26,912 bases of DNA from a virus. Its lineage: Duplodnaviria; Heunggongvirae; Uroviricota; Caudoviricetes. The notes under the pieces are model-generated. The model was not told the origin of the DNA and made no database searches. It saw only the letters and a list, made by a program, of their open reading frames with translations. A program made the position numbers and the translations under genes. Shown here piece after piece: positions 2,355-23,795 of the stretch (positions within the stretch are counted from its first letter, which is position 1; every line of letters starts with the position of its first letter). The stretch lies in IMG/VR virus record IMGVR_UViG_3300033124_000732; one strand, 5' to 3'.

Positions 2355-2723
2355 TTAGCCACCTGCGGCTTGAATTCTTCTCGCTAGGGAATTGATCTGT
2401 TGGTGTAATGCCTGTGCCTCGAGGTCTCGGGGCATCATGCGGTCGGCATATTGATAACTGTCGCCGCCTAGTTGTTTATATTTGTCTTGTTTTGCAGACA
2501 GTTCTCTTTTCAATGCATCAACATCAACTGACGCTGCATCTGCTGCTGCAGATTTTGCTGCTTGTGTTTGTCGAGCCAGATACGCTGTTCGATCTTGTTT
2601 GCGTAGCTCGTCATGTTCTGGATCACCATGTATACGGAGATTGGCAAATTGAGGATTATTTTTTTGTAGCTGTTTGAAATAATCTGTCAAACTATCGTTT
2701 TCAAATAAATCAGCAAGTTTCAT
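2355..2723 (-). CDS. Hypothetical protein, putative internal head protein
   Basis: 122-aa ORF with N-terminus MKLADLFE, coupled to the upstream gene (TAA-T-ATG). Confidence 0.75.
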   Translation of the reverse strand: MKLADLFENDSLTDYFKQLQKNNPQFANLRIHGDPEHDELRKQDRTAYLARQTQAAKSAAADAASVDVDALKRELSAKQDKYKQLGGDSYQYADRMMPRDLEAQALHQQINSLARRIQAAGG

Positions 2724-2724
2724 A

Positions 2725-3411
2725 TTATCGTTCTTCTATGTAATCTTGATTGAGATTTTGTTCTGGCCGATTACGCTGTTTATGAGCGCGGAACAAATCA
2801 ACTGCTATGCCTGCTTCGTCAGATGTGCGGAATCGACTGGGCAAGCTACGACCACGATGGCGTATTTCATAACCGTTGCCTTCATCACCGTGTATTTCAA
2901 ATATGGCACCGTCATCCAGTTCCATGACTTTGATGGGCTGTTGTGGATTGCCTAGTTGGGTATCTATGTTGTCTTCGATGCCATGCACTGTGCTAGGATC
3001 AGTTAGTTCATAATCGTTTTCTTCAATTTCTTCTTCGGCGGTGTGTTTTTCCACAGCGTCTTTGGCTTTGTCTTTGAGTTCACGATCAACTCGGACTTTT
3101 TTCTCCAGTTGATCAAGATACTGTGTGAGGTCTTTTTTGACCTTGCTCAACATATCTTCTTCGACTTCTTGCATGGCCTCTCCAAGCGATGGTTTCTTTG
3201 GAACAACAGAGTCGCCCACTAACTCACCATGCATGGGATGTTGAGGATCTGTCTTGGCACCTAGTGCTCGAATGCTGTGCGGCTTGAACAATGCTGGCAA
3301 TTGATGCACTGATTTTTGTTGTTGATTAAGTCCATGTTTAACGTTTACTGGAGTAGTTTTGCCTTCTACTATACTCAAACGTTGCAGTATGTCTCTAATG
3401 TCGTTGCTCAT
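2725..3411 (-). CDS. Hypothetical modular protein, putative internal head/core protein
   Basis: 228 aa: N-terminal DIRDILQRLSIVE, a charged coiled-coil middle, a small beta/alpha C-terminal module, ending DYIEER. ATGA overlap with dps. Confidence 0.8.
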   Translation of the reverse strand: MSNDIRDILQRLSIVEGKTTPVNVKHGLNQQQKSVHQLPALFKPHSIRALGAKTDPQHPMHGELVGDSVVPKKPSLGEAMQEVEEDMLSKVKKDLTQYLDQLEKKVRVDRELKDKAKDAVEKHTAEEEIEENDYELTDPSTVHGIEDNIDTQLGNPQQPIKVMELDDGAIFEIHGDEGNGYEIRHRGRSLPSRFRTSDEAGIAVDLFRAHKQRNRPEQNLNQDYIEER

Positions 3412-3851
3412 GCTCTTTCGTCTTTCAAGAAACTTCTCAGCATCCAGCCATGCTTTTGTTGAGCATCAATGCGTTCTGCTATAAAATTAGCGATGCCTTG
3501 TTGATTTTCTTGTTCAGCAACAGCAAAGCATTGGTTAAGAAGTTCCAACAGTTGGGTGTTGTTAGCCAACAGTTCTTCAATCATGAGTCGGGCACGAGGT
3601 ATCTTGGTCTGGCCCTTGATTTCTGACAGCTCAGCAAAACGCTCAAAACTGCCCGGCGAGTAGTCGCCTAGTGCGCGAATGTATTCAGCGGTTCGGTCTA
3701 TTGATCCGTTATAGACTTCTTCATACAAGTTTCCAAAAAACTCGTGTAATTGAGCAAAGTCCGGTCCTTCCACATTCCAGTGAAACAGCTGGGCTTTGAT
3801 GCTGAAAGCATACTCAGTTGCCAGGAGAGTTTTTAAAGCGTCCGCTAACAT
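3408..3851 (-). CDS. dps: Dps / ferritin-like DNA protection protein
   Basis: HWNVEGPDFAQLHEFFGNLYEE...DRTAE ferroxidase-centre pattern and C-terminal KHGWMLRSFL. SD AAGGA upstream. Confidence 0.92.
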   Translation of the reverse strand: MLADALKTLLATEYAFSIKAQLFHWNVEGPDFAQLHEFFGNLYEEVYNGSIDRTAEYIRALGDYSPGSFERFAELSEIKGQTKIPRARLMIEELLANNTQLLELLNQCFAVAEQENQQGIANFIAERIDAQQKHGWMLRSFLKDERA

Positions 3852-4032
3852 GTTTATTCCTTTTGTATTCCTTAGGCGTGTTCGGTGTAGGATCAGAGCC
3901 TGTTACATATTTACCACTTAACATGGATCCGCCAGATCTTGACACCATGCCCAATGGCTGACTTACAGGTGCTATAGACCCTGAACTAGTGCCACCTACT
4001 GACGCATTTTCCATTATTTCTTTCATTCTCAT
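3814..4032 (-). CDS. Small hypothetical protein, putative internal head protein
   Basis: N-terminus MRMKEIME followed by a Ser/Gly-rich segment. ATGA overlap with the upstream gene; overlaps the dps start by 38 nt. Confidence 0.65.
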   Translation of the reverse strand: MRMKEIMENASVGGTSSGSIAPVSQPLGMVSRSGGSMLSGKYVTGSDPTPNTPKEYKRNKHVSGRFKNSPGN

Positions 4033-4328
4033 GATGATGGTATTTCCAATGTTATTTGATCGTCGTGTATCGCAGCATTTTTACTGACTACTCGCATGTT
4101 TCTTATTTTTAGTTTGCTGCCACACGGTTCCACCAGTTCATATTTAATTTTGTACAATCCTGGAGGTGCTTCAATCACTATCACTTCTTCTAAGTAATAC
4201 TCTTTACCATTCCAAATCCATGATCTTTCTGTAAACAACTCGTCATTTACATACAGTCTATAGCGGGTGTCATTGCCATCCCACTTGCAATAAACATCAC
4301 AATGAACTTGAACTGATTTGGTCTGCAT
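4029..4328 (-). CDS. Hypothetical beta-rich protein (99 aa)
   Basis: Start moved from 4442 to ATG 4328 (MQTKSVQVHCDVYC...), which lies 4 nt after a TAAATA box and avoids overlap with the divergent radical SAM gene. Confidence 0.75.
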   Translation of the reverse strand: MQTKSVQVHCDVYCKWDGNDTRYRLYVNDELFTERSWIWNGKEYYLEEVIVIEAPPGLYKIKYELVEPCGSKLKIRNMRVVSKNAAIHDDQITLEIPSS

Positions 4329-4332
4329 TAGA

Positions 4333-4338
4333 TATTTA
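4333..4338 (-). promoter_or_regulatory. T4-like late promoter box TAAATA
   Basis: TAAATA-TCTA-ATG(4328); no SD. Confidence 0.7.
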
Positions 4339-4352
4339 GTCAAATATACAGC

Positions 4353-4360
4353 TATAAATA
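4353..4360 (+). promoter_or_regulatory. T4 late promoter consensus TATAAATA
   Basis: Exact TATAAATA, then TCACA, then ATG 4366. Confidence 0.8.
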
Positions 4361-4365
4361 TCACA

Positions 4366-5430
4366 ATGTTAAAACTATCAGAAATTCGTCGATTGCATAT
4401 TGAATTGACCACAAGATGCAATGCAAGATGTCCCATGTGCATGCGAAATTATAGAGGGTACGAATACAATTCTGGATACCCAACATGTGAATTGTCTCTA
4501 GCAGATTTCAAACACATTGTTACTCCTGAACTGCTGGCGCAACTAATTCGCCCTGACGAACCTATTAATGGTCGAATACCAACAGTGTTTGGATTTAGAG
4601 GCATTACATTTAATGGCAATCTTGGTGATTTTGCATCAGCTCGTGATGCGGTAGACATAGTTGAATATATTGCTGCTCACAACGTGCCAGTTCATATCAA
4701 TACCAATGGTAGTTTACGCAGCCCAGACTGGTGGAGCAGACTAGCACTACCCAGAGTCACAGTGGGATTTGCAATCGACGGCATGAGTGACACTCACAAA
4801 TTATATCGTCAAGACACAGATTGGCACAGAATCATTGATCATGCACAAGCACTAATTCGTGCAGGAGGTCGGGCTGTGTGGCGATTTGTGCCTTTTGATC
4901 ACAATCGCCATCAAGAACAAGAATGCCGCCAGCTGGCACATGATCTGGGTTTTTTTGAATTTGAAAACATATACGATGGACGAGATCGTGGACCAGTATT
5001 CACTAGAGATGGAAAGTTTAGTCATGTGATTGGACTCGCTGAACCTGGTGAAGTTCCAACAATTGAAGCATTGTTAGAAAATCATGTCACTTGGTATGAT
5101 TCTAAAACATATCGTTCTCACAAAGATGTTCCAAATTTGTCAATGAACTGTATTCACAAACAAAATCAAGAAATATACATTGCCGCAGATGGTAGTGTGT
5201 ATCCATGTTGCTTTTTAGGGTTTTATCCACACACCATGAGTCATCCGGGCAACAAGGAACTGGCACCCATGGTACAAGAAAACAATGCGTTGCAGTATCC
5301 ATTGGAACATTGTTTGGCCTGGTTTGAAAGTGTAGAACAAGCATGGAGCAAATCCAGCATTGCCGAAGGCAGACCATATCAGTGTGTTAGCACTTGCGGG
5401 AAAACAGCCTCTGCTGTTGCTACTCTATAA
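4366..5430 (+). CDS. Radical SAM enzyme with C-terminal SPASM/twitch domain
   Basis: CNARCPMC (CxxxCxxC), NGNLGD, TNGS, FAIDG, and C-terminal C...IYIAADGSVYPCC...CVSTC. Start refined to ATG 4366. Confidence 0.9.
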   Translation: MLKLSEIRRLHIELTTRCNARCPMCMRNYRGYEYNSGYPTCELSLADFKHIVTPELLAQLIRPDEPINGRIPTVFGFRGITFNGNLGDFASARDAVDIVEYIAAHNVPVHINTNGSLRSPDWWSRLALPRVTVGFAIDGMSDTHKLYRQDTDWHRIIDHAQALIRAGGRAVWRFVPFDHNRHQEQECRQLAHDLGFFEFENIYDGRDRGPVFTRDGKFSHVIGLAEPGEVPTIEALLENHVTWYDSKTYRSHKDVPNLSMNCIHKQNQEIYIAADGSVYPCCFLGFYPHTMSHPGNKELAPMVQENNALQYPLEHCLAWFESVEQAWSKSSIAEGRPYQCVSTCGKTASAVATL

Positions 5431-5433
5431 TTA
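5426..5433 (+). promoter_or_regulatory. Late-promoter variant TATAATTA
   Basis: One mismatch to TATAAATA, 5 nt before ATG 5439; overlaps the radical SAM stop codon. Confidence 0.45.
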
Positions 5434-5438
5434 ATGCC

Positions 5439-6323
5439 ATGACCAGCGCAAAAATCTTATACCTAGCACGCTATCGTGTGCCGCATGCTATAATGAGCCT
5501 ACAACCAGAATTTACTCAACACCTTATTGGTGTGGATAGAACTTGCATTGCCAGTCCTGTGCCCAAAGATGAACTTTGGGAAGTATTTGAAAAGCACGGT
5601 ATAGACACTGCAAAATTTGACTATGCACCTGACTCGGAAATTTACAGAATATATCCTGAAGTTAATGACTGGGTTTTTGAAGGCGACTATAGAACCTACT
5701 GGTTGCGTCAACAGGCCATCAAGTTTGCTTTCTTAGATTATTTAGATTACGATCTCATGATCATGCATGACTGTGATTGCTTGTTGATCAAAGACTACGA
5801 GCCCTTTAAAGATGGCAAGCTGAACTTTATGGTGTTAGAAAACGAACGGCACAGTTGGGGTTACTATGAGAGCATCAAGAATGCTCTGGGCTTTGACCGA
5901 CTCACACCACACTGCTTTATTTCAGAGTTTGTGCCTGTGCTGAAAAAAGACTTCAACGACCTTGTGAAGTTCCTGGAACAAACACACAACAAAAAATGGC
6001 TGAATGCCATGATTGACTCATGCCCGCCCGAGCCTACTGTGCCACCTTGGGGCAATGGTGAACTGATTCGTTGGTTCTCTGAATACGAATTCATTGGCAA
6101 CTGGGCCATGAGTCGTCAGGATATAACCATGGAATTCCAGCGTAGATATCACTATGACGACATGGAAAAGATTGGCGACTTTGACCCCACTTACCATACT
6201 GCTGTGTGTGATGCTGTGCCTGACCTAAGTCGCAGTTTGCAGTTTGACTGGGACAAAAAAGAAATTCCTAAGTTTGATTACTACATGGACAAGATTCGTG
6301 AAAGACTTGCACGCCACACTTAA
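5439..6323 (+). CDS. DUF6492-like putative glycosyltransferase (GT-A-like)
   Basis: YWLRQQAIKF motif followed by MHDCDCLLIK (DxD), resembling the paralogue at 8677-9486. Start refined to ATG 5439. Confidence 0.6.
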   Translation: MTSAKILYLARYRVPHAIMSLQPEFTQHLIGVDRTCIASPVPKDELWEVFEKHGIDTAKFDYAPDSEIYRIYPEVNDWVFEGDYRTYWLRQQAIKFAFLDYLDYDLMIMHDCDCLLIKDYEPFKDGKLNFMVLENERHSWGYYESIKNALGFDRLTPHCFISEFVPVLKKDFNDLVKFLEQTHNKKWLNAMIDSCPPEPTVPPWGNGELIRWFSEYEFIGNWAMSRQDITMEFQRRYHYDDMEKIGDFDPTYHTAVCDAVPDLSRSLQFDWDKKEIPKFDYYMDKIRERLARHT

Positions 6324-7371
6324 GGTATTTTCTCCGGGTTACCACGCAACTGAATGGGGGTTTGATTTCAAGCAGATTGTGGATTTGCCAACTGCCCTGG
6401 CACAGCCGCATCGCATAGCAGTGATGCCAGTGTTTTACAGTTTGCCTAACAAGTTTGATTATTGTCCAGAGTACATGCAATTTCCTTTGCATGAGTTTGA
6501 TCTTGTGTTATTCACTGACATCGAATGGCGCAGCAAAAAAGAACTTGTGACCTGGATCGAGACCACAGGAGTCAAAAATTGGCTATTGCACACAGCCAGC
6601 ATTTGGTTGGATGAACCTGCTGACCCAAGAGTAATTTACAGACCAGCCTGGAGTTTTAATTTCCTACGTTGGAATCCACCACGTGTGGATTTCCCACTTG
6701 ACCGCCCGTATGCATTTGAGTGTTTGCTAGGAGCCAGGCGCGAGCACAGAGACTTTGCCATGCTGGGTCTACAACAATCAGGATTACTGGAGCAAGGCAT
6801 TGTGACCTACAGAGATCTGTTTGTGGGCCATTGGATCAATCAAACTCCTGAACGTGTGACTGCACTGTTTAACAACACAAAATTGCAATATCCTTATGTG
6901 AGCCCACACCTTGACCCTTTATGGGAAGTAAAATCTCAAATGGACCATTCAGTCAGTGGATTTGTGCCATGGGAAATATACAATCGTACTTGGTTTTCAG
7001 TGGTGTGTGAAACTCTGGGCAAACACGTCTCTGAAGACCGCATATTTTTGTCAGCAGAAAAAATGGCCAAATGCCTGCAAGCTCGCAGACTGTTTGTGGT
7101 ATTTGCTATACAAGGGTTTTTGCAATATTACCGAGACTGGGGATTTGAAACTTTTGGCGATGTCATAGACGAATCATACGACAACAAGCCAGACGACATT
7201 GCAAGATGGCATGGTGCGCTTGAACAAGTGCAATGGTTGTGCAGTCAAGATTTGCCTGCACTGCTGAAAAAATTAAAACCCAGACTAGACCACAATCACA
7301 ATAGACTGTATGAGTTTGAACAGGAAAACACTCAACAGCTACAGAATTTTGTTGTGAATCACTTGAAGTAA
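6307..7371 (+). CDS. Putative glycosyltransferase with a GT10 (fucosyltransferase)-like C-terminal motif
   Basis: FSVVCET...FLSAEKMAKCL...GFETFGDVIDESYD resembles the GT10 FEN...TEK nucleotide-sugar motif. The start is uncertain: TTG 6307 is preferred over 6244. Confidence 0.5.
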   Translation: MHATLKVFSPGYHATEWGFDFKQIVDLPTALAQPHRIAVMPVFYSLPNKFDYCPEYMQFPLHEFDLVLFTDIEWRSKKELVTWIETTGVKNWLLHTASIWLDEPADPRVIYRPAWSFNFLRWNPPRVDFPLDRPYAFECLLGARREHRDFAMLGLQQSGLLEQGIVTYRDLFVGHWINQTPERVTALFNNTKLQYPYVSPHLDPLWEVKSQMDHSVSGFVPWEIYNRTWFSVVCETLGKHVSEDRIFLSAEKMAKCLQARRLFVVFAIQGFLQYYRDWGFETFGDVIDESYDNKPDDIARWHGALEQVQWLCSQDLPALLKKLKPRLDHNHNRLYEFEQENTQQLQNFVVNHLK

Positions 7372-8168
7372 GCAAGCCAGTGCTGATAGAAGTGTTCAGC
7401 AATGATTTCTTGTCCAGCAGGGCTTGAGTGATAGCCAGGATCTTCGCCCGTAAACGGATTGTTACCGCAAATGGCCTGTGGCGAGCGTGCTTCGTCCAAG
7501 TTGATATAGTGATCAGGTACAAGAGCAGGAAATGCTTCGCGCCACTGATTGACATTGGCAGGGTCAAAGGGCCATAACAAGTTAGGCAGCACCAAGAACT
7601 GGATGTCTTCTAAGAACATGGTGATCACACCTTCTCGTATCATCCACTCGTCCTGTTGTTTTTTCCAGGCATTGTCGTAGATTGAATCAATCCAATGCCG
7701 CACACCCGTCTGCGCTTGTTTAGTAATGCGGCCCATTCTGTACGGATGATCAAAGTTTTCAGCTAGTGTAAAGATAGTTTCACAGATCATGTTTGATTGC
7801 TCTCGACCATAGTTTACATTGCGTATGCCATCTTCTCTGCAGTAACCATTACCTAGTTTTCTATTCTGTAAGTGCTGTTCCAATGGAGGATTTTCTCCTG
7901 CACTAGGCGCTTGAGTCCAGTCATAAGGCACAGAGTTGGCAGGTATTTCCATCCTATCCCAAAAGGTAGGCCCAATCACAGCAAAGTCTGGACGCTGTCT
8001 ACGAATTTCATCTATTTGAATGCGTATGCCGCCATTTGAACAGCCTTGTCTAGCAAGATTGACCAATTCCCAGCCGCCTAGTTTTTCAGCCAGGCGTTCA
8101 CTCCAGGCAGTGCCCGGTAAAGTTTGACTCACAGCTGAAAATGAACAGCCTGCTACCATTAATTTCAT
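7359..8168 (-). CDS. SGNH/GDSL-like hydrolase or acyltransferase
   Basis: Block I MVAGCSFS, block II NLARQGCSN, C-terminal DPGYH. Its 3' end overlaps the convergent gene by 13 nt. Confidence 0.75.
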   Translation of the reverse strand: MKLMVAGCSFSAVSQTLPGTAWSERLAEKLGGWELVNLARQGCSNGGIRIQIDEIRRQRPDFAVIGPTFWDRMEIPANSVPYDWTQAPSAGENPPLEQHLQNRKLGNGYCREDGIRNVNYGREQSNMICETIFTLAENFDHPYRMGRITKQAQTGVRHWIDSIYDNAWKKQQDEWMIREGVITMFLEDIQFLVLPNLLWPFDPANVNQWREAFPALVPDHYINLDEARSPQAICGNNPFTGEDPGYHSSPAGQEIIAEHFYQHWLAYFK

Positions 8169-8680
8169 TGACGTTCCTTGTAATCGTTTTGATGTGTTAT
8201 GGGATGAAAGCCACGCACAATCTCACCATGCAGTGGTAGTTCATCTATGCTATATGTATCTGGTGGCACAGTGTAGGTCACAGTTCCTTGGCCCGGCGGA
8301 GCAAAAGTAACCACTCGTGGATGATTGGCTACAGCTCGGTAAACCAAACGATGATGTATGTGTCCATAATCCCCCTGCTTGTCGTGTGTGAGAATCAAGT
8401 CGTAGTTGGCTGCCAACTGTGCGCAGGCTGTTTCTGCATCTAGTGCAGACCAGCATGTGAATCGTTGTTGTTCATTGTCGTGCCAATGATCTTCAAAGCC
8501 CAAGAACACACAGTTGATTCCACGCTTGTGCCAAAAGTCAGAGAGTTCTGATCCACGAGGATCTTGCTCTGTATAGGTCAAGTAGCCAATAGTCCAGTCA
8601 TGGTCAGCATGATTGTGAATATAACTGAGTGCAAATATCACACAGTCATCTGGATGTGCTACCAAGCACAAGGCTTTCAT
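8165..8680 (-). CDS. PIG-L / LmbE-family N-deacetylase
   Basis: LVAHPDD and LILTH...GDYGHIHH metal-binding motifs. Start refined to ATG 8680, giving ATGA overlaps at both ends. Confidence 0.8.
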   Translation of the reverse strand: MKALCLVAHPDDCVIFALSYIHNHADHDWTIGYLTYTEQDPRGSELSDFWHKRGINCVFLGFEDHWHDNEQQRFTCWSALDAETACAQLAANYDLILTHDKQGDYGHIHHRLVYRAVANHPRVVTFAPPGQGTVTYTVPPDTYSIDELPLHGEIVRGFHPITHQNDYKERQ

Positions 8681-9486
8681 AAGATGCCTCTTTCGGCTAA
8701 CAATGTATGATATTGTTGCTGTTGTTCTTTGCTTAGTTGTGACCATGCATTTCTGTGTATGCTTACTGTGAGAGTTTTGGGCTGATTCATTGTGTTAAGT
8801 TTTGAATCAAAGATGCCTGTTTCACTGTGGCAAAGATTAGCAGGATGAATGTTTGATTGTGTGTGATATCTCTTGTCAAATGTGCAATCTCGGTACCACA
8901 CATAGCCTGAATACAATATGAACTCTGTAAGCCGACCCTGTTGTTGAAAGTAGTCACTAAAGTCTTGGCCAGTTCTGTGTTCTACTTCTTGAATCATTTC
9001 TCTTGTTAAACTGGGTTCAACAAAAAATGGCACACCACCGGGGCCTAACTGTGCTGGCAAATCAATATCAAACAACTGGTTGGTTATGTTTCGGCTGGCA
9101 TCAAATACAGGATAGATTGGCATACTTCCTGTAGCAGCACGCCCGTCTACTATCACTTGATCCAACTCAATTGGTCGCACAAATAGTGTTTTGGCATCTA
9201 CAATCATGCACCAGGTATTCTCACTCTGAGCTGCACCTAATATCTTTAACACTTGTTGACTGACCCAACCGTTGTCACTCCAAGCGCAACCAAATGCAGA
9301 TCTTGGAACGATTTTTACATGATCAGCAAATGCACCATACCAGGCAGGATCTACTCGGCTAAGATCATTCACCATTACAAAGATATTTTTCAAGCCGATG
9401 TCTTTACAATATAGCTCAATGCTACGGGCTTGTAGTTTTAGAATGTCAAGTTCGGATTCAAATACAACTGTGCAGATATCAATCAT
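8677..9486 (-). CDS. DUF6492-like putative glycosyltransferase
   Basis: IDICTVVF...LQARSI, GWVSQQVLK, MIVDAKTLFVRP, PFF, TEFILY pattern. Confidence 0.65.
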   Translation of the reverse strand: MIDICTVVFESELDILKLQARSIELYCKDIGLKNIFVMVNDLSRVDPAWYGAFADHVKIVPRSAFGCAWSDNGWVSQQVLKILGAAQSENTWCMIVDAKTLFVRPIELDQVIVDGRAATGSMPIYPVFDASRNITNQLFDIDLPAQLGPGGVPFFVEPSLTREMIQEVEHRTGQDFSDYFQQQGRLTEFILYSGYVWYRDCTFDKRYHTQSNIHPANLCHSETGIFDSKLNTMNQPKTLTVSIHRNAWSQLSKEQQQQYHTLLAERGIL

Positions 9487-9501
9487 GCACTTATGTATGG
9501 G

Positions 9502-10005
9502 TCAATGTCCAGTGGCTGCTAATTCAGCGCCTTTGTTGAATGAGTTTGACCATGAAGCTGCACTCTTGCGTCCTCGAGCAACACTCCAATTGTATCCAGC
9601 ACGGTGTCCGGAACAGTCTTTGGTGCATTGTGAACCCATAAAGGTGAGCTCGTTTAGCTGCTCTTCGTTTAGTCCAAACCCTTCACGAATCTCATTCATT
9701 AACTCGCTTACACTGGCTTCTGTGTTGGGCAATTTACCTCTATAAGCATCATCAATGTATGGATCACCTTCTTCTACTGTGCCTAATGCGTATGAAAAGA
9801 AACCTTCCCCAGCGTTTTCTATAATAACAAAATAAAACTGGTCATCAGTTTCTTGACCTTTCACACTAAACATAAAAGTGCCATCGCTTTGACGTTGCCC
9901 TTTCCAGCCCGTGGCTTTCATTGCGCTGTTGATTTTGTTAACAACCCAAGGCCATGTCAACACAGTTCCTAGGGTGTTTTCAGTTACGATGTCTGAGATT
10001 CTCAT
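9502..10005 (-). CDS. Two-module hypothetical protein with a C-terminal Cys/His module; putative internal head protein
   Basis: N-terminus MRISDIVTE; linker GLNE-EQLNE; then the FMGSQCTKDCSGHRAGYNW module. Confidence 0.75.
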   Translation of the reverse strand: MRISDIVTENTLGTVLTWPWVVNKINSAMKATGWKGQRQSDGTFMFSVKGQETDDQFYFVIIENAGEGFFSYALGTVEEGDPYIDDAYRGKLPNTEASVSELMNEIREGFGLNEEQLNELTFMGSQCTKDCSGHRAGYNWSVARGRKSAASWSNSFNKGAELAATGH

Positions 10006-11225
10006 TTTTTAGGTTGTTGAGCTGTTGGTACATTTCGGTACACACGCCGGGCAGGATCATACACAGTTTTTAACGGACCCAGTCCAGCTAATTTTTTCAC
10101 TCTGGCAACCATGTCTTGATAGTCATCGCCGTAGTCGGCTTCGGGCGGATCACGATAGTCAGCACCCTTTTGTTGTTCGCCTTCGTCCATGCCTGATTTT
10201 TTGTTACCATGTGGCCATTTAATGCCCATACTCTTGTCTAATTTGGCAGTTAAACCTTTGTCTAAATGATCAATGTCTTTGGCATATTTGCCCGGATCAT
10301 AATAAGCACGTGGTGCTTCACCACCACCATATGCACCACTGCTACGATGTATCATGCCTGTTTTGGTTTTTTCAACTTCGCCTTCTGTGGTGCGGTCAGG
10401 AAGTTTTTTGTAGTTGCTGTTTTTGTCTGCAGAGTGAAACTCTTTTGCCACTGCCGGACTGATGCCAACTTTCTTGGCAAATTTGGGATTGTGTGCTGCC
10501 GCTGCCATGGTGCGGAATTGTGCTTGGCTCACTGACTTTTCTGCCAACTGGTCTTCTGCCACACCTTGCTCTTTAACAGGCCAAGGCTTTAATGGGCGAC
10601 CTTTAGCATTGAACCAACCTGTTTGCGTGGCGTTGTCCCACTTGGCCCAAACTGCGCTATCACCGACAACTGTTTCACCTTTGCTGTCGGTGCGAAATTC
10701 ACTCATGTCATCAAACACCCGTGCGTTAATGCTATCAGTGGCTCTGTCCCATTCTGCTTTGTCTTTGGTCTTGACATTATCTGTAGTCATATCAGCATTG
10801 CGAATCACAGGACCCGGCATGTGGTCAACATCATGAGGGAAGCCTTCCGCCATGCCTTTCTTCTTGTTTAACTCTTTGTTTAGAATCTTTTCAGCATCCT
10901 GGGCTACTTTTTTAGCAGTGGTTGCTTTAGCAGTGTATTCTTTCTTGCCGGCGTCTGAATCGTTACTACCATCACGACCCGGAGGAGTTTGTGATTTGTC
11001 CATTTCCATCACACCTTCGTTCTTGCTGTTGCCATAGTTGTCAGCGCCTTTTTTACGACACTGAACCAGTCGTCCTGACGCATAGGCTGATGGCCATACC
11101 TTAGCCGACGCTTTGACTTTATAGTAACAGGCATCTTTTTTCTCAGCCAGGATCAAGTCTGAAAACGAAGGACCGCCGCATTCGGGGCAGGTTTGATGAG
11201 ATTCAAATAAGTCAGTTATAATCAT
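10002..11225 (-). CDS. Multi-module hypothetical protein, putative internal head polyprotein
   Basis: N-terminus MIITDLFE; modules CPECGG, KKDACY...WPSAYASG (DUF5872-like), KSVSQAQF...AAAAHNPKFAKKVGI and MVARVKKLAGL, separated by x-x-E linkers such as QGVAE. Confidence 0.8.
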   Translation of the reverse strand: MIITDLFESHQTCPECGGPSFSDLILAEKKDACYYKVKASAKVWPSAYASGRLVQCRKKGADNYGNSKNEGVMEMDKSQTPPGRDGSNDSDAGKKEYTAKATTAKKVAQDAEKILNKELNKKKGMAEGFPHDVDHMPGPVIRNADMTTDNVKTKDKAEWDRATDSINARVFDDMSEFRTDSKGETVVGDSAVWAKWDNATQTGWFNAKGRPLKPWPVKEQGVAEDQLAEKSVSQAQFRTMAAAAHNPKFAKKVGISPAVAKEFHSADKNSNYKKLPDRTTEGEVEKTKTGMIHRSSGAYGGGEAPRAYYDPGKYAKDIDHLDKGLTAKLDKSMGIKWPHGNKKSGMDEGEQQKGADYRDPPEADYGDDYQDMVARVKKLAGLGPLKTVYDPARRVYRNVPTAQQPKK

Positions 11226-11569
11226 TTTTTCTTTGTGGCCACATTAATGGCCGGTCCTTTGCGGTTGGGATTGGGATCTTGTCTGCGTTTTCTGGCTGCT
11301 GCTGATGCTCGGCCTTTCTTGCCTAGAGCATGTGCCTTGGCCTGCGGCAAACACTTGGGCTTGCCTTCTTTTGAACTGTCTCTGGCACAATTACCACGGA
11401 TTTTGCCATCAGGCCCAAAGCGTACCCATTTTTCTTTGAACCAGTTTCGGAGATTTTCTTCCAGATCCTGCTCGCTGATCTTTTCACAACTGCCTTTGGA
11501 ATACTCGGTGGTGCCGGGTTTGCGGCGATAACCGTCCCAGCAGGCTTCGAGAATCTCTTTGTAAGTCAT
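11222..11569 (-). CDS. Small basic Cys-containing two-module protein, putative internal head protein
   Basis: N-terminus MTYKEILE; modules ACWDGY...GSCEK and NLRNWFKEKWV...C...PKCLP. Confidence 0.8.
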   Translation of the reverse strand: MTYKEILEACWDGYRRKPGTTEYSKGSCEKISEQDLEENLRNWFKEKWVRFGPDGKIRGNCARDSSKEGKPKCLPQAKAHALGKKGRASAAARKRRQDPNPNRKGPAINVATKKK

Positions 11570-11575
11570 GATTGT

Positions 11576-14500
11576 TTATTTATTGCGTTTGGCTTTAGCC
11601 CGCCCAGCCTTCATGTTGGCCATCCAATGTGCCAGTTGCCCTTTGCGACCGCCTTGTTTGGCCACTTTACGCAAGGTGCTTACTGATGCTTTGGTGGGCA
11701 CGCCGTGTCTTTTTGAATCGCCCTTGTCTTGCGGATTCCGACCATCAGCAAAGTTTTCAGGCAGTTCTTCCTTGCCCAAGAATGTTTGAGCAAACAACTG
11801 ACATTCGCCCCATAGTTGGTCATTCTCAGTCACATACACACGGAAGTCAGCGTCCGAATCGTCATGCTGTGTGGGGTCTTGATAGCCGGCATATACTTTG
11901 TGTATGCCTACAGAGTTTAACAAGTCTTTGCAACTTTCTCCGTGGCGTTCTTCCATGGGCGAGTTGCAGGGACTGCAAGTTGTAACCACAATACTACCTT
12001 GTGGAATTTCACCAATGGATTTTCTATACTTGTCTATGGCCACTCGTTCAGCATGGCGGCGTGTGCCATCTTTAGCAGGCAAGTTGATGCCGTAGATCAT
12101 TCGGTTGTCGGGGTCAATCACACAGGCAGCAACTTGTCCATAGCGTTTGGGATCTCGCTGTTGACCTTGTACAACCATGCGACAGCATTTGGCCAACACT
12201 TGGTCCAGCTTGGGTCTATCATGCAGTTCATAGTCGCTGGCATCAGCTTCAGTTACATTGTAGGTAGGATCAGTCTTTTGACGCGGCATGCCTGCAGGTT
12301 GTGCGGGATCCACAGGATCAATGTCAGTAGTGGTTAGCCCAGTTTGTTTCAATGCCTGTATATACTGATGTTCTAGATCTTCGTCACCAAAACTTATGAT
12401 AGCACTGGGTGGTCCTTTGCCAAAGTCATGTTTGCCCAGACCCTTCATGTTTGAAATATGCTGACCCAGTTTGTACCAGTCATACACATCACTCACATCC
12501 ACTCGCACAGTGCCAGCTGGCATTGTGGGCGGTGTCTCTGGACCAGGAGGATCAAAATTGCCGTAGCGATCCTTGCCTTCTGTCATGATAGGATACACTT
12601 CAAAGCCTTCGCCTGACACGCCCCGTCCATTGTTTCGCAACCAAGTGGCTGCAACTCTGTTGGCATCCGATTGACTATTACCCACGCCTGAGAATCTATA
12701 AACTTCTTCACCGTTGACCAACACCTTCCATGCACCAGAGAATGTGCCTGGCGTGGCTCTCTGTTGTGCCAAGGCTGCTGTGGATCCTGCAACAGCAGAC
12801 CGGCGGGTACGATAGTCAGCATCTCCATGGGTTTCACGGTACTGTAGTAATCTTTGTATAGCCGCACTATCATCGGGGGCAAGGAATGCAACAGCAATTT
12901 GCCCAGTATCATTATTAAAAATTTCGTATTGTTGTGGGCTTGCAAATTCTAGGTCTGGCTCAATGTCAATGATACCGTTTTGTTCAGCATCTGATCTAGA
13001 ACCTTCTCTAGTTCTTACTTCAAAGTCGTTGGGATTGTGGCCATTTTGACTTAGCCAAGTTCTTGCTTCTGATTCTGCGGCACCGCGATTTGTGAACTCT
13101 GTATTGTAGTACACTTGGTTGTTGTTTCTGTTGGCCACTTCCCACGGACCTGGACCAGTTGGGCGTAAAGGGTTTACATTTGTTTGACTGTTGGCTGATT
13201 GAATAGTGTAATCGTCGTTACTCCATCCTTGAGTGTTCATAAAATCAGTTGCTTGGATCATAGCAGCATTTTGATTGTCTGCATTGAAGCGATGAACAAC
13301 TTCTTGATCACTGTTACGTCGAATTTCCCAGTTTGGAGCACCACGTGCTGCACCAAACTGTGATGTGTCTCGTGGTTCTGATGGTTCAATCTCTTGAGCA
13401 ACTAATGCAAGACCATTTCCTGGTTGCCGTGTGTTGTAATCCTGTATCCAGTCTTGCGCAGCCGCCTGGTCAGTAAATCTTCTAGTTACAGACTGACCGT
13501 CAACATTCATTTCAGCATAGCGATCAAGCATTGCTACCCAAACACCCCAATTGCCAGAGGTTGCACTGTCTTGATCTTGTGCAGGTTTTTCTTCGTATGG
13601 ACGCACGGGCTTGGCCACAATGGATTGTCTTGTGTTGGTCCACGAAGGATAGCCATCTGGGCCTAGGGCCTTTTCAATGGCTTCTTCTCGAGAGGTAGCA
13701 ACAACTTCTATACCGGCAGAACTTTGCGGGGGATTGGTAACGCTCCACCACATCTTTTGATTGCCGGCTTCACCGCGTTTTACCTTGCGTTCTAGTTGTG
13801 CTTGTTTCACAAAACTACGCAAGGCAGCCTTGGGAATCTTGCCTGCCACATAGTCTGAGAAGTATCGGATTGTGTCTGAATCCTTTTGATCCTGAGTCAA
13901 CAGCTTGTACAGTTTCTTTTGGTATTCTTCTCGATAGGCTTCAGGATTTAATGCCGCACTCATAGCCACTGTGAATCTCAACAGAGTGTTTTCAATCTTG
14001 TCAAAGTTGTCGTCCAACCAGTCGCCACCGGGCGAGCGGAATTCAATGTGTCCGTCTTTGGTGTTGATTGATGTGTATTTGTCTGTGCTGCCTGAATGGA
14101 TGGCTTTAGAAGCCAGTTCACCCATTTGGCCCTTCATCTTGTCCAGTAAACGTTGTGCGTCTTCAGGGTTGGATCGCACACGATCACGCACCTTGCCCAA
14201 GGCGGATTTGGTATAGGTATTTGAGCTACGACCAAATTGTTTGAGCACATACTCGTCGCCCAACAGAAGGGCCAATTTCACAAAGTCCAATCGGTCTCTG
14301 CTGTAGTCAGGCACTGAAATGTTGATGTGCAAGCCAGTTGAACTGTTGGTATAAACACCCATACGTCCAGCCCAGGACTTGACAGCGTTCAAATCTTTCA
14401 ATAGTTCATCTATGGGCATGGGCGGGCTCACAAACTCCAGGCCTTCGTCGCCTGGATTGTCGCCTTCCAAACTGCCGTCTGGTTCCACCACATAGAACTG

Positions 14501-16582
14501 ATTGCTTGGATCGGGTCTGGCACCGGACTGATGATATCTTGTGTTCACTCGCACTTCACGGCCCACAGCCTGACTGAATTCGTCAGCCACTTGATCTGCG
14601 TCAATCTCGCCGCTGTTTATGCTAGTCCAGTATGGCCAAGTTATATCATAGGCACTTTCAATGCCACTCATGCGGTCAAGGTCTTCGGCATCTAACCAAT
14701 CGCTTTCGTCCCAGTTGTCCTGATTTTCTTCACGGTATTCATCAAAGGCCTGATTGTAGTAATCACTAGAAGGATCAGCATAAACATTAGCAACAAATTG
14801 ATCAAGTGAATCGGTTTTGTCTGCATCAAGGTCTGCCCACTCGTCTTCATCTACATTATTCACAATCCATTCTCTGAGGTATTCTTCGCCGTCCATGCCC
14901 CAGGAATCGCGAATTTTATCATCCTGCCATTCAGTGAAATCGTTGTACATTCTGTCACGTAATTCAGCAACTTCTCTTCGACCGTTGTAGTCGCCGTCAT
15001 GAAAGAAGTTCACAGCATCATCAATACTAACACAGCGTTCATCCTGATCATAGTCGGGTTCCTGTTCAGGATCTTCAGACTCCATGCCAGGCACAATCAT
15101 TTCAAATTCCATGCCAGCAATGGCACCTGTCTTGGCTGCTTCTCGGCGTAGACTCTTGCTGCCCATGTTTATTTCAAACAGGTCTTGTTCTTCAAACAAT
15201 TCAAATTCTTGGGCAAGGCTTTCTGCCAACTTTATCTTGCCGTCTGCTCGCAACAGTTGTGGATGACCTTGTGCATCAGTAGCCAGTCTCATCTTGTTGG
15301 CTTCTTTACCTGTTTGTCCTGGTTGCACATCAACAGTTAGTGCCATCTTAAAGCGTGGATCGTTTGCTTGTGCCTTGGTAGGAATATATCCTGATGATTC
15401 ACGAATGGCTTCTTGGTCAAACAAGTCTGGGTGTGCATCTGCAAAGTCTCGCATGATGATGCCTGCCACAGCGTGTGCTTCATTTTCTATAGGTGACCCT
15501 GTGTTGCCAGATGTGTGATCCAATTGTTCTAATTCATTTTGACGACAGTGTGCCAGTTCATGTGCTGTGGTTCGCAAAATATCCATGATATGACGATTGC
15601 GAATGTTCACATGCAACACATGTTGATCGGGAATGTACATGCCAAACGAATGATTTTCTTCACTCCATCCATCATTGTCATGCAGCACAATTTCAGGCAT
15701 GCGCTCAATGCCCAAGCGTTCAGCAGTGTCTTGAATGAACTGTTGCACCATGTTTTCAGTGTCATCTTCGTTCAAGAACATTTGTGTGCTGGGTGCCACG
15801 CCATCTGGTGAGCTGTAGGGTTGACCTTGATGGCCTTCTGCAAATCCCCAATGGAATTGCGGAGCATGGTCTTGTTCTTTTAGACTTAGTTCATGATCTT
15901 GTGCGGCTGTTCTGGCTGTGCGCAAATCTTTAATGCAGCCTTTGTTGCGCAGAATTTTAAACACAATGTTTTCGCAACCAAACTCACCGTGAGCATCCAA
16001 GCCACTTTGACGCATGGACTTGATCTTGTCCCACAGTCTGCTCATGTGTTCAGCATTGCCAGATTGGATGGCAGAATGTATTCTGGCATCCAAATCTTCT
16101 ACCTTGGCTCGCACACAGGTATCATCAATTCTAGCACGTTTTCTGCGTGGTACTTGAATCCATTCTTCACGTGGGATAGAATACTCGCCTTGGCTCACAG
16201 GGGATTCGGCTGCATTTTGCACATACAATTCCACAGGCACGCCGCCAATGGCTAGATTGTGTTCGTCGTTGTATTGATATTTTTTGGCATTGAACAGTTC
16301 CTGATAAACTTCGTCGTCAGCAGGAAATTCTACCACAAGGTGTAGATCAATGTCGGAATATGGAGTATAGCTGTAGGCAGCATTGCTGCCTGAGATGGTT
16401 ATGTCTCGGACGTCAAGGTCGCCCACGCCAAGAAATTCGCGAAAATTGTCCGCAATGGCCATGAGTTTTTCACGCACCTCGGGCAACAAGTGCTCGTCTC
16501 GCCCCCAGATTTTAGGGTTGAGACGATTGTGAAACTTTACAGCATCGCTTAGTTTAAAGGAGTCCAGTTCTGTAATATGCAT
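11576..16582 (-). CDS. 1668-aa polyvalent protein: pol-beta-superfamily nucleotidyltransferase + HExxH metallopeptidase + amidoligase + six repeats + RibD-like deaminase + small modules
   Basis: GS...SDIDLH (NTase); HELAH at 15548-15562; GMEFE / EPDGSL / LEFVSPP / TGLHINIS / IEFRSPGG (amidoligase_2-type COOH-NH2 ligase); HAE at 12047-12055 with SPC...C...QDP (deaminase). Confidence 0.88.
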   Translation of the reverse strand: MHITELDSFKLSDAVKFHNRLNPKIWGRDEHLLPEVREKLMAIADNFREFLGVGDLDVRDITISGSNAAYSYTPYSDIDLHLVVEFPADDEVYQELFNAKKYQYNDEHNLAIGGVPVELYVQNAAESPVSQGEYSIPREEWIQVPRRKRARIDDTCVRAKVEDLDARIHSAIQSGNAEHMSRLWDKIKSMRQSGLDAHGEFGCENIVFKILRNKGCIKDLRTARTAAQDHELSLKEQDHAPQFHWGFAEGHQGQPYSSPDGVAPSTQMFLNEDDTENMVQQFIQDTAERLGIERMPEIVLHDNDGWSEENHSFGMYIPDQHVLHVNIRNRHIMDILRTTAHELAHCRQNELEQLDHTSGNTGSPIENEAHAVAGIIMRDFADAHPDLFDQEAIRESSGYIPTKAQANDPRFKMALTVDVQPGQTGKEANKMRLATDAQGHPQLLRADGKIKLAESLAQEFELFEEQDLFEINMGSKSLRREAAKTGAIAGMEFEMIVPGMESEDPEQEPDYDQDERCVSIDDAVNFFHDGDYNGRREVAELRDRMYNDFTEWQDDKIRDSWGMDGEEYLREWIVNNVDEDEWADLDADKTDSLDQFVANVYADPSSDYYNQAFDEYREENQDNWDESDWLDAEDLDRMSGIESAYDITWPYWTSINSGEIDADQVADEFSQAVGREVRVNTRYHQSGARPDPSNQFYVVEPDGSLEGDNPGDEGLEFVSPPMPIDELLKDLNAVKSWAGRMGVYTNSSTGLHINISVPDYSRDRLDFVKLALLLGDEYVLKQFGRSSNTYTKSALGKVRDRVRSNPEDAQRLLDKMKGQMGELASKAIHSGSTDKYTSINTKDGHIEFRSPGGDWLDDNFDKIENTLLRFTVAMSAALNPEAYREEYQKKLYKLLTQDQKDSDTIRYFSDYVAGKIPKAALRSFVKQAQLERKVKRGEAGNQKMWWSVTNPPQSSAGIEVVATSREEAIEKALGPDGYPSWTNTRQSIVAKPVRPYEEKPAQDQDSATSGNWGVWVAMLDRYAEMNVDGQSVTRRFTDQAAAQDWIQDYNTRQPGNGLALVAQEIEPSEPRDTSQFGAARGAPNWEIRRNSDQEVVHRFNADNQNAAMIQATDFMNTQGWSNDDYTIQSANSQTNVNPLRPTGPGPWEVANRNNNQVYYNTEFTNRGAAESEARTWLSQNGHNPNDFEVRTREGSRSDAEQNGIIDIEPDLEFASPQQYEIFNNDTGQIAVAFLAPDDSAAIQRLLQYRETHGDADYRTRRSAVAGSTAALAQQRATPGTFSGAWKVLVNGEEVYRFSGVGNSQSDANRVAATWLRNNGRGVSGEGFEVYPIMTEGKDRYGNFDPPGPETPPTMPAGTVRVDVSDVYDWYKLGQHISNMKGLGKHDFGKGPPSAIISFGDEDLEHQYIQALKQTGLTTTDIDPVDPAQPAGMPRQKTDPTYNVTEADASDYELHDRPKLDQVLAKCCRMVVQGQQRDPKRYGQVAACVIDPDNRMIYGINLPAKDGTRRHAERVAIDKYRKSIGEIPQGSIVVTTCSPCNSPMEERHGESCKDLLNSVGIHKVYAGYQDPTQHDDSDADFRVYVTENDQLWGECQLFAQTFLGKEELPENFADGRNPQDKGDSKRHGVPTKASVSTLRKVAKQGGRKGQLAHWMANMKAGRAKAKRNK
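11577..11582 (-). promoter_or_regulatory. Late promoter box TAAATA
   Basis: TAAATA-AACAATC-ATG(11569); overlaps the last codons of the upstream polyprotein gene. Confidence 0.65.
12585..13760 (-). repeat. Six diverged ~45-60 aa tandem domain repeats inside the polyvalent protein
   Basis: Units begin KMWWSV, GNWGVW, PNWEIR, GPWEVA, QQYEIF and GAWKVL, and share the pattern W/Y-x-V...F...A..A...W/F...G...(Y/F)-x-V. Boundaries are approximate. Confidence 0.7.
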
Positions 16583-16590
16583 ACGAACTG

Positions 16591-16596
16591 TATTTA
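16591..16596 (-). promoter_or_regulatory. Late promoter box TAAATA for the polyvalent protein
   Basis: TAAATA-CAGTTCGT-ATG(16582); no SD in the 17-nt gap. Confidence 0.7.
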
Positions 16597-23728: not shown

Positions 23729-23751
23729 TAGCATCCTTGGTAGTTTTTGTT

Positions 23752-23780
23752 ATTATACTGCAATTTCAAACAGCATGCAA
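23752..23780 (-). promoter_or_regulatory. Sigma70-type promoter for clpA
   Basis: TTGCAT (23775-23780), 17-nt spacer, TATAAT (23752-23757). Confidence 0.8.
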
Positions 23781-23789
23781 GTGTTTTGA

Positions 23790-23795
23790 TATTTA
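23790..23795 (-). promoter_or_regulatory. Possible late promoter box TAAATA upstream of clpA
   Basis: Includes the dnaJ stop codon; 61 nt upstream of the clpA ATG. Confidence 0.4.

What the first reader, a model, noticed from the sequence alone, without database searches (positions are those of the whole stretch)
2355..16582. Shared capsid-targeting-like N-terminal leader on six late proteins
Seen: the N-termini MKLADLFE (2723), MRMKEIME (4032), MRISDIVTE (10005), MIITDLFE (11225), MTYKEILE (11569) and MHITELD (16582) share the pattern M-x-h-x-D/E-h-h-(x)-E although the proteins are otherwise unrelated. Known: the T4 capsid-targeting sequence is MKTYQEFIAE on IPII/IPIII, and T4 Alt begins MELITELFDE (recalled). 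Inference: a common packaging tag defines a cargo family in this phage.
Basis: partly seen in the sequence, partly recalled or inferred. Interest (0 to 1): 0.75.

Follow-up and report, generated by a model that had tools for sequence, protein, structure and literature searches.

The report
Capsid-targeting leader on jumbo-phage proteins
Several unrelated proteins of an uncultured lake jumbo phage start with the same short tag, which closely matches the one phage T4 uses to load proteins into its head, so this phage's packaged (and probably injected) proteins may be readable from sequence alone.

Summary
All six N-termini are present, and a seventh lies outside the window. A pattern written from the window alone matches 6 of 141 protein starts, against 0.12 expected. 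It recurs in relatives: 4 in a syntenic 153-kb contig and 38 in 28 related viral loci, against 0.06 and 0.3 expected. Conservation is at the amino-acid level, not the DNA level.

The window is part of a roughly 27%-complete contig of a freshwater jumbo phage. Its closest cultured relative is Pseudomonas phage PA5oct. That lineage has a T4-type prohead protease, scaffold and major capsid protein.

Read from the T4 genome, the leaders of IPII/IPIII, Alt and gp24, all cut by the prohead protease, follow the same pattern. Small tagged proteins continue after the leader's Glu with the sequence that follows a hydrophobic-x-Glu site near the capsid protein's N-terminus, its likely maturation cut. In PA5oct, 6 of 10 loosely tagged proteins were detected in virions, against a base rate of 20%.

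My best reading, at about 0.7, is a T4-type capsid-targeting leader that the head protease removes. Packaging, cleavage and late timing are not shown for this phage, and the MHITELD member is weak.

This is a new member of a known kind. The scan has already noted similar leaders on other uncultured T4-like phages.

The parts
2355..2723 (-). 122-aa tagged protein. Leader MKLADLFE, predicted cut before ND. No known family.
   Evidence: Orthologues with the same leader in L015, L019 and L012.
3814..4032 (-). 72-aa basic tagged protein (pI 10.2). Leader MRMKEIME is followed by NASVGGTSSGSIAP, which resembles the PA5oct capsid protein just after its LVE site.
   Evidence: local alignment; 1 of 500 shuffles reached the score against the G002 capsid protein. 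phrog_17311 matches residues 1-27. Conserved as a 72-aa gene in five loci.
9502..10005 (-). 167-aa tagged protein. Leader MRISDIVTE has the exact T4-type spacing. It is built of two exchangeable modules (residues 7-113 and 112-167).
   Evidence: In relatives the same modules sit behind other leaders (MKLLELFEQ, MRAQEFVNE, MKISDFKIV).
10002..11225 (-). 407-aa tagged modular protein. Leader MIITDLFE. Its modules are shared with T4-like cyanophage proteins.
10845..10856 (-). Internal linker KKK-GMAE-G in the 407-aa protein (aa 124-127). Candidate protease site and module joint.
10554..10565 (-). Internal linker KEQ-GVAE-D in the 407-aa protein (aa 221-224).
10182..10193 (-). Internal linker variant KKS-GMDE-G in the 407-aa protein (aa 345-348).
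11222..11569 (-). 115-aa basic tagged protein (pI 10.0). Leader MTYKEILE. First gene of a three-gene run (115, 407, 167 aa) whose starts and stops overlap.
   Evidence: Orthologues begin MRYKEILEACW in L013, L015, L019 and L026.
11577..11582 (-). TAAATA box (AATAAATAA) 7 nt upstream of the 115-aa gene's start, with no Shine-Dalgarno sequence. Resembles a T4 late promoter.
11576..16582 (-). 1668-aa multi-enzyme protein: nucleotidyltransferase (aa 14-233), HExxH motif (aa 341-345), amidoligase (662-855) and cytidine-deaminase domain (1467-1566). Starts MHITE-LD. A weak leader member that resembles the ITE-6 site of T4 Alt.
   Evidence: PMC5694885.
15836..15847 (-). GFAE-G site (aa 246-249), just after the nucleotidyltransferase domain of the 1668-aa protein.
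16591..16596 (-). TAAATA box (GGTAAATAC) 8 nt upstream of the 1668-aa gene's start. Present in 26 of 27 distinct upstream regions of homologous genes.
2725..3411 (-). 228-aa protein starting MSNDIRDILQRLSIVE-G. A possible variant leader in a shifted register; low confidence.
   Evidence: Similar starts MDMKKILQA in G002 and MDMKQILQA in L006. Not tested further.

Best explanation
The shared N-terminus is this lineage's version of the T4 capsid-targeting sequence.

Inferred mechanism:
1. A short amphipathic acidic leader, M-x-h-x-D/E-h-h-(x)-E, directs otherwise unrelated proteins into the scaffolding core while the prohead assembles.
2. The T4 gp21-type prohead protease then cuts after the leader's last Glu, a hydrophobic-x-Glu site. 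It probably also cuts at internal Q-G-V/M-A-E linkers.
3. The mature cargo stays in the head with the DNA and is probably delivered to the host on infection. The cargo includes small basic modules, a 72-aa protein and possibly a 1668-aa multi-enzyme protein.

Shown here:
- The tag exists, is strongly over-represented at N-termini, and is conserved as protein rather than as DNA.
- It heads varied cargo across the lineage.
- The lineage has the T4-type protease, scaffold and capsid protein.

Inferred, not shown: targeting, cleavage, residence in the virion, ejection and late timing.
For: 1. Enrichment and replication: 6 against 0.12 expected in the genome, 4 against 0.057 in G002, and 38 against 0.30 in 28 related loci.
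2. Selection acts on the protein. Among the seven paralogous leaders, identity is 0.60 at second codon positions and 0.28 at third positions, and the upstream DNA is unrelated. Thirty-seven genes of the MRAxEFhxE class vary at synonymous sites.
3. Match to proven T4 cases, read from the T4 genome: IPII/IPIII MKTYQEFIAE, Alt MELITELFDE, gp24 MAKINELLRE and gp22 MLKEQLIAE. The CTS is cleaved once and is sufficient for packaging (PMC8442874). The diverse internal proteins share only the CTS (PMC3012670). Alt is cut at ITE-6 (PMC5694885).
4. Machinery. Peptidase_S77 is found in the syntenic relative G002 (E 2.3e-27) and in PA5oct (E 7e-25). The scaffold is 40% identical to that of PA5oct.
5. Site mimicry. 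The capsid proteins read KYLSE-SATAGATSAGNVA (G002) and RFLVE-NASAGATQAGNIA (PA5oct). Tagged small proteins read MKIYDIIKE-TATAGATSAGNIA and MRMKEIME-NASVGGTSSGSIA.
6. Virion evidence in PA5oct. Of 10 loosely tagged proteins, 6 carry the ESI-MS/MS virion flag (EST35_0150, 0198, 0230, 0237, 0238, 0349), against 93 of 461 overall; binomial p 0.007 (PMC7318152).
7. T4 calibration. The strict pattern, allowed one extra residue, finds IPII, IPIII and gp24, and Alt by eye, plus only two other proteins.
8. A 601-aa tagged protein in L024 has an ART-PolyVal ADP-ribosyltransferase hit, which parallels T4 Alt. The hit is below Pfam's cut-off.
Against: - There is no direct evidence for this phage. Its head genes are not on the 95.7-kb fragment.
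- The PA5oct test used a loose pattern that is unspecific in T4, where its 18 hits include lysozyme, thymidylate synthase and UvsY. With the strict pattern only 2 of 3 PA5oct hits are virion proteins.
- T4 gp61.1 and modA.2 lie among T4 early genes, have no known head role, and also match.
- The tagged genes lie among metabolic and replication genes, not in the structural module.
- The TAAATA boxes also precede untagged genes.
- The internal QGVAE linkers are conserved at silent codon positions (GTG 29 of 35 Val, GCG 31 of 43 Ala). A protease site alone does not explain that.
- The MHITELD start is conserved together with the following domain in 38 loci, so it may be part of the fold.
Confidence: 0.7

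Rival explanations
1. The leader is only a protease-removable propeptide or substrate-recognition element. It does not itself target proteins to the prohead; entry depends on other parts of each protein.
For: The clearest sequence evidence concerns the cut site: the hydrophobic-x-Glu end of the leader and its likeness to the capsid protein's site. Nothing here tests targeting.
Against: The cargoes share nothing else that could direct them. In T4 the equivalent 10 residues are sufficient for packaging foreign proteins (PMC8442874; PMC9024508).
Confidence: 0.1
2. The tag is a recognition sequence for another phage enzyme encoded nearby.
For: The contig has five radical-SAM genes, two of them in the window. 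A ClpA-like ATPase and a DnaJ lie upstream in conserved synteny.
Against: G002 has 11 or more tagged genes, but its only radical-SAM match (22 bits, below Pfam's cut-off) lies 15 kb from them. PA5oct has tagged virion proteins and no radical-SAM gene. T4 has the same leader type with neither kind of enzyme nearby. Linkage to the Clp-like gene was not tested beyond two genomes.
Confidence: 0.08
3. The shared start is a DNA-level cassette (promoter, ribosome site and start) that serves as a crossover point for gene shuffling. The peptide is a by-product.
For: The same genome and its relatives do use DNA-conserved junctions: the QGVAEG linker shows strong silent-site conservation.
Against: The seven leaders in this genome are about random at third codon positions (0.28 identity) and have unrelated upstream DNA. 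The MRAxEF class varies freely at synonymous sites.
Confidence: 0.03
4. It is chance, or a generic helix-starting N-terminus with no shared role.
For: Loose versions of the pattern are common. In T4 they give 18 hits, most of them cytoplasmic enzymes.
Against: The strict pattern is about 50-fold over-represented here and replicates in relatives. Tagged genes are clustered, and the tag persists while the cargo changes.
Confidence: 0.04

Closest known systems
T4 capsid-targeting sequence (CTS) of internal proteins IPII and IPIII (MKTYQEFIAE; Mullaney & Black 1996, as cited in PMC8442874 and PMC3012670)
   Same: It sits at the extreme N-terminus, is 8-10 residues long, and has the pattern M-basic/polar-x-h-x-acid-h-h-x-E ending in a hydrophobic-x-Glu protease site. 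It heads unrelated and often basic proteins. The lineage has a gp21-type protease. The MRAxEFhxE class in relatives is almost the T4 sequence.
   Different: The leader is one residue shorter in most window members. There are many more cargoes: at least 7 on a 27% fragment and at least 11 in a relative. Cargoes include modular multi-part proteins and large enzymes. The host phage is a PA5oct-like jumbo phage. No experimental proof exists.
N-terminal propeptides of T4 Alt (MELITE-LFDE, cut at ITE-6) and gp24 (MAKINELLRE)
   Same: MIITDLFES and MHITELDSF resemble Alt. G002's MKINELLTE resembles gp24. Like Alt, some cargoes are enzymes, and one relative has an ADP-ribosyltransferase-like domain.
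   Different: The cargoes are not homologous to Alt or gp24. Alt's C-terminal processing has no tested counterpart here.
Propeptides of head and ejection proteins in phiKZ, 201phi2-1 and SPN3US, cut at S/A/G-x-E (PMC5694885)
   Same: These are jumbo phages in which a protease related to gp21 cuts after Glu. Many head proteins are processed, and some propeptides have several sites.
   Different: Those propeptides are long and have no shared short N-terminal tag. The residue two before the cut is small there, not hydrophobic. The phage lineage is different.
P1 DarB N-terminal packaging signal (PMC9024508)
   Same: An N-terminal signal that is sufficient to load a very large anti-restriction enzyme and reporter proteins into a capsid.
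   Different: It needs more than 9 and up to 30 residues, and no consensus is shared among the Dar proteins. It is not linked to a T4-type protease site.

Membership tests
T4-type capsid-targeting sequence | A short tag at the extreme N-terminus, shared by otherwise unrelated proteins of one phage | tested here: met
   Six strict members plus one weak member among 141 proteins, against 0.12 expected. The downstream parts have different or no families.
T4-type capsid-targeting sequence | Sequence pattern like the T4 leaders, ending in hydrophobic-x-Glu | tested here: met
   Compared with T4 IPII/IPIII, Alt, gp24 and gp22 read from NC_000866. In T4 the same pattern recovers the known processed proteins.
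T4-type capsid-targeting sequence | The same phage encodes a gp21-type prohead protease and a scaffolding core | tested here: inconclusive
   Not on the window's own 95.7-kb fragment, which is 27% complete. Present in the syntenic relative G002 and in PA5oct, each with scaffold and capsid genes.
T4-type capsid-targeting sequence | The prohead protease removes the leader by cutting after Glu | not testable with these tools
   Only inferred. Tagged small proteins carry, right after the leader's Glu, the sequence that follows the capsid protein's hydrophobic-x-Glu site.
T4-type capsid-targeting sequence | Tagged proteins are found inside virions | tested here: inconclusive
   Cannot be tested for this uncultured phage. 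In PA5oct, 6 of 10 loosely tagged and 2 of 3 strictly tagged proteins were detected by ESI-MS/MS, against a 20% base rate.
T4-type capsid-targeting sequence | The tag is sufficient to encapsidate a foreign protein | not testable with these tools
   Needs a leader-reporter fusion in a cultured relative.
T4-type capsid-targeting sequence | Expression together with the head genes (late) | tested here: inconclusive
   TAAATA boxes precede the 115-aa and 1668-aa genes, the latter in 26 of 27 distinct upstream regions. They also precede untagged genes. No expression data are available.
Polyvalent proteins of phages (Pfam 'PolyVal' domain families such as PF18760 ART-PolyVal) | A very large protein that strings together several unrelated enzyme domains | tested here: met
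   The 1668-aa protein has nucleotidyltransferase, HExxH, Amidoligase_2 and cytidine-deaminase domains. No PolyVal-specific Pfam domain was found in it. Delivery with the DNA is not testable here.

The most novel reading that the evidence does not exclude
In a large clade of uncultured freshwater jumbo phages related to PA5oct, the packaged and injected protein set can be read directly from sequence through this tag. That set is unusually large and fluid. It would include a 1668-aa multi-enzyme effector (nucleotidyltransferase, metallopeptidase-like motif, amidoligase, deaminase), Alt-like ADP-ribosyltransferases, and multi-part proteins of exchangeable modules. The QGVAEG joints of those proteins would serve both as head-protease cut sites and as DNA-level crossover points.
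Probability: 0.4. Interest if true: 0.75.

Novelty: new member of a known kind. Interest (0 to 1): 0.55.

Why it matters
If the tag works as in T4, it gives a simple sequence rule for listing the proteins that a whole group of uncultured jumbo phages carry in their heads and probably inject. Such proteins act first in infection, for example in counter-defence or host takeover. Here they are mostly of unknown function and include very large multi-enzyme proteins.

The tag could also be a practical handle for loading foreign proteins into PA5oct-type capsids, as the T4 CTS is used today. In the full-text library I searched, none of the 21 papers that use the phrase 'capsid targeting sequence' describes such a tag in PA5oct-like or uncultured phages. 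The scan itself has already noted the same kind of leader on other uncultured T4-like phages, so this is a further case and not a first.

Tried and rejected
- Complex prediction of the G002 scaffold with a 104-aa tagged protein of the same contig gave no verdict: score 0.00 and low fold confidence. It counts neither for nor against binding.
- Megablast of the region against cultured phages found nothing.
- A small scoring matrix trained only on 15 leaders from relatives ranked four claimed members as the top four of 141. It was dominated by the MRAQEF class and separated poorly above its threshold, so I use it only as a weak check.
- I checked whether the internal G-M/V-A-E sites are relic or internal gene starts, since the middle codon is almost always ATG or GTG. 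No gene in any locus starts at such a site. The MAEE starts that turned up belong to an unrelated holin-like family.
- The radical-SAM tag idea and the DNA-cassette idea were tested and found unlikely.
- The supplementary tables of the PA5oct paper, which might hold peptide-level data, are not held as text.
- Pfam gave no family for most tagged cargoes.
- I did not fetch the whole PA5oct feature table. The virion test therefore rests on the published total of 93 of 461 and on the flags of the ten proteins I looked up.
Full report
**What the window is.** The window is the minus strand of positions 31301-58212 of a 95.7-kb IMG/VR contig. CheckV estimates the contig at 27% complete. Almost all genes run on the window's minus strand. 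From high to low coordinates they are:
- a ConA-like lectin protein, a holin-like protein, DnaJ and a ClpA-like ATPase;
- a cytidylyltransferase-like protein and a radical-SAM protein;
- the 1668-aa protein, followed by the 115-, 407- and 167-aa proteins;
- a glycan-tailoring group (DUF6492, PIG-L, and on the plus strand a SPASM protein and another DUF6492);
- the 72-aa protein, a Dps/ferritin, a 228-aa protein and the 122-aa protein;
- the start of a family-B DNA polymerase.

The contig holds no prohead protease or capsid gene. That says nothing about the phage, because this is a fragment.

**The observation.** A seventh tagged gene lies outside the window at genome 27451 (MKITDVILEA). A strict pattern taken from the six, M-x-h-x-[DE]-h-h-(x)-E, matches 6 of 141 N-termini, against 0.12 expected from its internal frequency. 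MHITELD does not pass it.

Because the pattern was written after seeing the data, I applied it unchanged to other DNA:
- 4 hits against 0.057 expected in G002, a 152.8-kb contig syntenic with this one;
- 38 non-identical hits of 425 against 0.30 expected in 28 related IMG/VR loci;
- 3 hits against 0.33 expected in PA5oct.

Those loci were found through homology to the C-terminal modules of the 167-aa protein, not through their N-termini. Even so, the proteins found begin MKLLELFEQ, MRAQEFVNE, MKADEFITE, MKISDFKIV and the like. G002 has at least 11 tagged genes in the same place, between the ClpA-like gene and the DNA polymerase.

**Protein-level or DNA-level conservation.** Among the seven leaders of this genome, identity is 0.44, 0.60 and 0.28 at codon positions 1, 2 and 3, and the upstream DNA is unrelated. 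Thirty-seven genes of the MRAxEFhxE class in relatives vary freely at synonymous sites and have different upstream sequences. The tag is therefore selected as a peptide. This rejects a promoter or ribosome-site cassette as the explanation.

**Comparison with T4, from sequence rather than memory.** In NC_000866 two genes begin with exactly MKTYQEFIAE (IPII and IPIII). Alt begins MELITELFDE, gp24 MAKINELLRE and gp22 MLKEQLIAE, and gp23 carries FLTE-AEIGG. The literature states the following:
- The CTS is about 10 residues, is cleaved once, and carries foreign proteins into heads (PMC8442874).
- The diverse internal proteins share only the CTS (PMC3012670).
- Alt is cut at ITE-6, and all T4 internal head proteins join the core through a CTS (PMC5694885).

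The window's leaders follow the same pattern and are usually one residue shorter. MIITDLFES and MHITELDSF are closest to Alt.

As a calibration, the strict pattern with one optional extra residue finds five proteins in T4, and Alt also fits by eye. These are IPII, IPIII and gp24, plus gp61.1 and modA.2, two proteins of unknown function encoded among early genes. A looser pattern is unspecific in T4, with 18 hits.

**Machinery in the lineage.** G002 encodes a Peptidase_S77 (gp21-type) protease (E 2.3e-27). The gene order there is portal, a 78-aa gene starting MILRELFYF, an acidic 272-aa protein, the protease, a 363-aa scaffold starting MLDALKQLFENN, and the capsid protein. The scaffold is 40% identical to that of PA5oct, the closest cultured phage, and PA5oct has the same protease. 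The capsid proteins read KYLSE-SATAGATSAGNVA (G002) and RFLVE-NASAGATQAGNIA (PA5oct).

Small tagged proteins carry that same sequence directly after the leader's Glu. The window's 72-aa protein reads MRMKEIME-NASVGGTSSGSIA, and an 82-aa protein in L001 reads MKIYDIIKE-TATAGATSAGNIA. The 72-aa alignment to the G002 capsid protein was reached by 1 of 500 shuffles. This is my main reason to place the cut after the leader's Glu. The true maturation site of these capsid proteins has not been determined.

**Virion evidence in a cultured relative.** In PA5oct, ten proteins match a loose form of the leader. Six are flagged as detected in virions by ESI-MS/MS:
- EST35_0150, the small gene after the portal, starting MKINDIITE;
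- EST35_0198;
- EST35_0230;
- EST35_0237;
- EST35_0238, starting MKIKDILVE;
- EST35_0349.

The base rate is 93 of 461 (PMC7318152), which gives a binomial p of 0.007. Several of the six sit in a block of 'structural' proteins of unknown role between the primase and ribonucleotide reductase genes, much as the tagged genes here sit beside replication genes. The test is modest, because the pattern was loose, and only 2 of 3 strict hits are virion proteins.

**Internal linkers.** The tagged proteins also hold K/E-Q-G-V/M-A-E linkers between modules: four in the gene at 27451, three in the 407-aa protein and one variant in the 1668-aa protein. Across all loci these linkers are eight times denser in tagged proteins than in the rest (Fisher p 4e-6). 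They fit a hydrophobic-x-Glu protease site.

They are also conserved at silent positions. Val is GTG in 29 of 35 sites, against 26% genome-wide, and Ala is GCG in 31 of 43 sites, against 7% genome-wide. No gene ever starts at such a site. A protease site alone does not explain this. A second role as a DNA crossover point for module exchange is the simplest addition. I found the linkers before reading two earlier notes of this scan that say the same for other genomes.

**Cargo.**
- The 115-aa and 72-aa proteins and several predicted fragments of the 407- and 358-aa proteins are basic, with pI 9-10, against a genome median of 5.9.
- The same modules occur in a 399-aa protein encoded just downstream of the gp16 terminase gene in T4-like cyanophages. 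That protein lacks the N-terminal tag but has an internal EEFVNE.
- The 1668-aa protein has nucleotidyltransferase, HExxH, amidoligase and deaminase parts.
- Its start, MN-I-x-E-L-D, is conserved along with the next 25 residues in 38 loci. It may therefore belong to the domain, and I rate this member as weak.
- Stand-alone homologues of the nucleotidyltransferase part in a cyanophage and a Maribacter phage begin MNLQEFVDK and MNLKTLVET.
- A 601-aa tagged protein in a relative has a sub-threshold ART-PolyVal hit.

**Timing.** ATAAATA occurs 7 times on the coding strand of the contig and once on the other strand. A TAAATA box lies 7-8 nt before the start codons of the 115-aa and 1668-aa genes, with no Shine-Dalgarno sequence. 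It is present in 26 of 27 distinct upstream regions of genes homologous to the 1668-aa gene. In G002 the same box precedes the portal gene and other large genes of its structural region. It also precedes untagged genes here, so 'late' is plausible but not shown.

**Rivals.**
- A radical-SAM or other maturase recognition tag is unlikely. G002's only radical-SAM match (22 bits, below Pfam's cut-off) lies 15 kb from the tagged cluster, and PA5oct has none.
- The ClpA-like gene is syntenic with the cluster in two genomes. I could not exclude it as a reader of the tag.
- Chance and the DNA cassette are rejected by the counts and the codon analysis above.

**Verdict.** It is a further member of the T4 CTS kind, in a PA5oct-related uncultured jumbo phage, with a larger and more modular cargo set. 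Earlier notes of this scan describe like leaders on other uncultured T4-like phages. In the paper library I found no description of such a tag for this lineage.

Noticed in passing
window 10554-10565, 10845-10856; genome 27451-28527 (outside the window); many related loci: The inter-module linker Q-G-V/M-A-E-G is conserved down to silent codon positions: GTG for Val in 29 of 35 sites and the rare GCG for Ala in 31 of 43. It therefore also acts at the DNA or RNA level, most simply as a crossover point for module exchange.
   Followed up: partly
window 16591-16596 and 11577-11582; L081-L118: A TAAATA box sits 4-9 nt upstream of the start codon with no Shine-Dalgarno sequence. It is kept in 26 of 27 distinct upstream regions of genes homologous to the 1668-aa gene. 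This suggests T4-late-type promoters that give almost leaderless mRNAs.
   Followed up: partly
window 3814-4032: After its leader, the 72-aa protein copies about 15 residues of the capsid protein (NASxGxTxxGxIA), the stretch that follows a hydrophobic-x-Glu site there. It might compete with the capsid protein for the protease or for a contact made by that N-terminal arm.
   Followed up: partly
L031:2302-3501 (Synechococcus phage ACG-2014d): T4-like cyanophages encode a 399-aa protein just downstream of the gp16 terminase gene, built from the same small basic modules (about 80% identical over 50 residues). It has no N-terminal tag.
   Followed up: partly
window 21455-24578: A ClpA-like double-AAA ATPase and a full DnaJ lie just upstream of the tagged gene cluster. 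The same order is kept in the relative G002.
   Followed up: no
window 11576-16582, aa 341-345 (window 15548-15562): The 1668-aa protein has an HExxH motif (HELAH) between its nucleotidyltransferase and amidoligase parts. No Pfam model reports it. It may be a metallopeptidase module.
   Followed up: no
T4 NC_000866 18966-19130 (gene 61.1): T4 gp61.1, a 54-aa protein of unknown function next to the primase gene, begins MKTFKEFIKE, very like the CTS of IPII/IPIII.
   Followed up: no
L024:2653-4458: A 601-aa protein with the leader MRAQEFIVE has a weak ART-PolyVal (ADP-ribosyltransferase) match (E 3.4e-5, below Pfam's cut-off). This recalls T4 Alt.
   Followed up: no
window 4029-4658: The 137-aa and 69-aa open frames here look non-coding. 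The stretch is more likely the divergent control region between the minus-strand operon that starts at 4032 and the plus-strand glycan-tailoring genes.
   Followed up: no
window versus G000:C1:31301-58212: The window differs from the stored genome copy at 11 positions, so the two are near-identical but not the same record.
   Followed up: no
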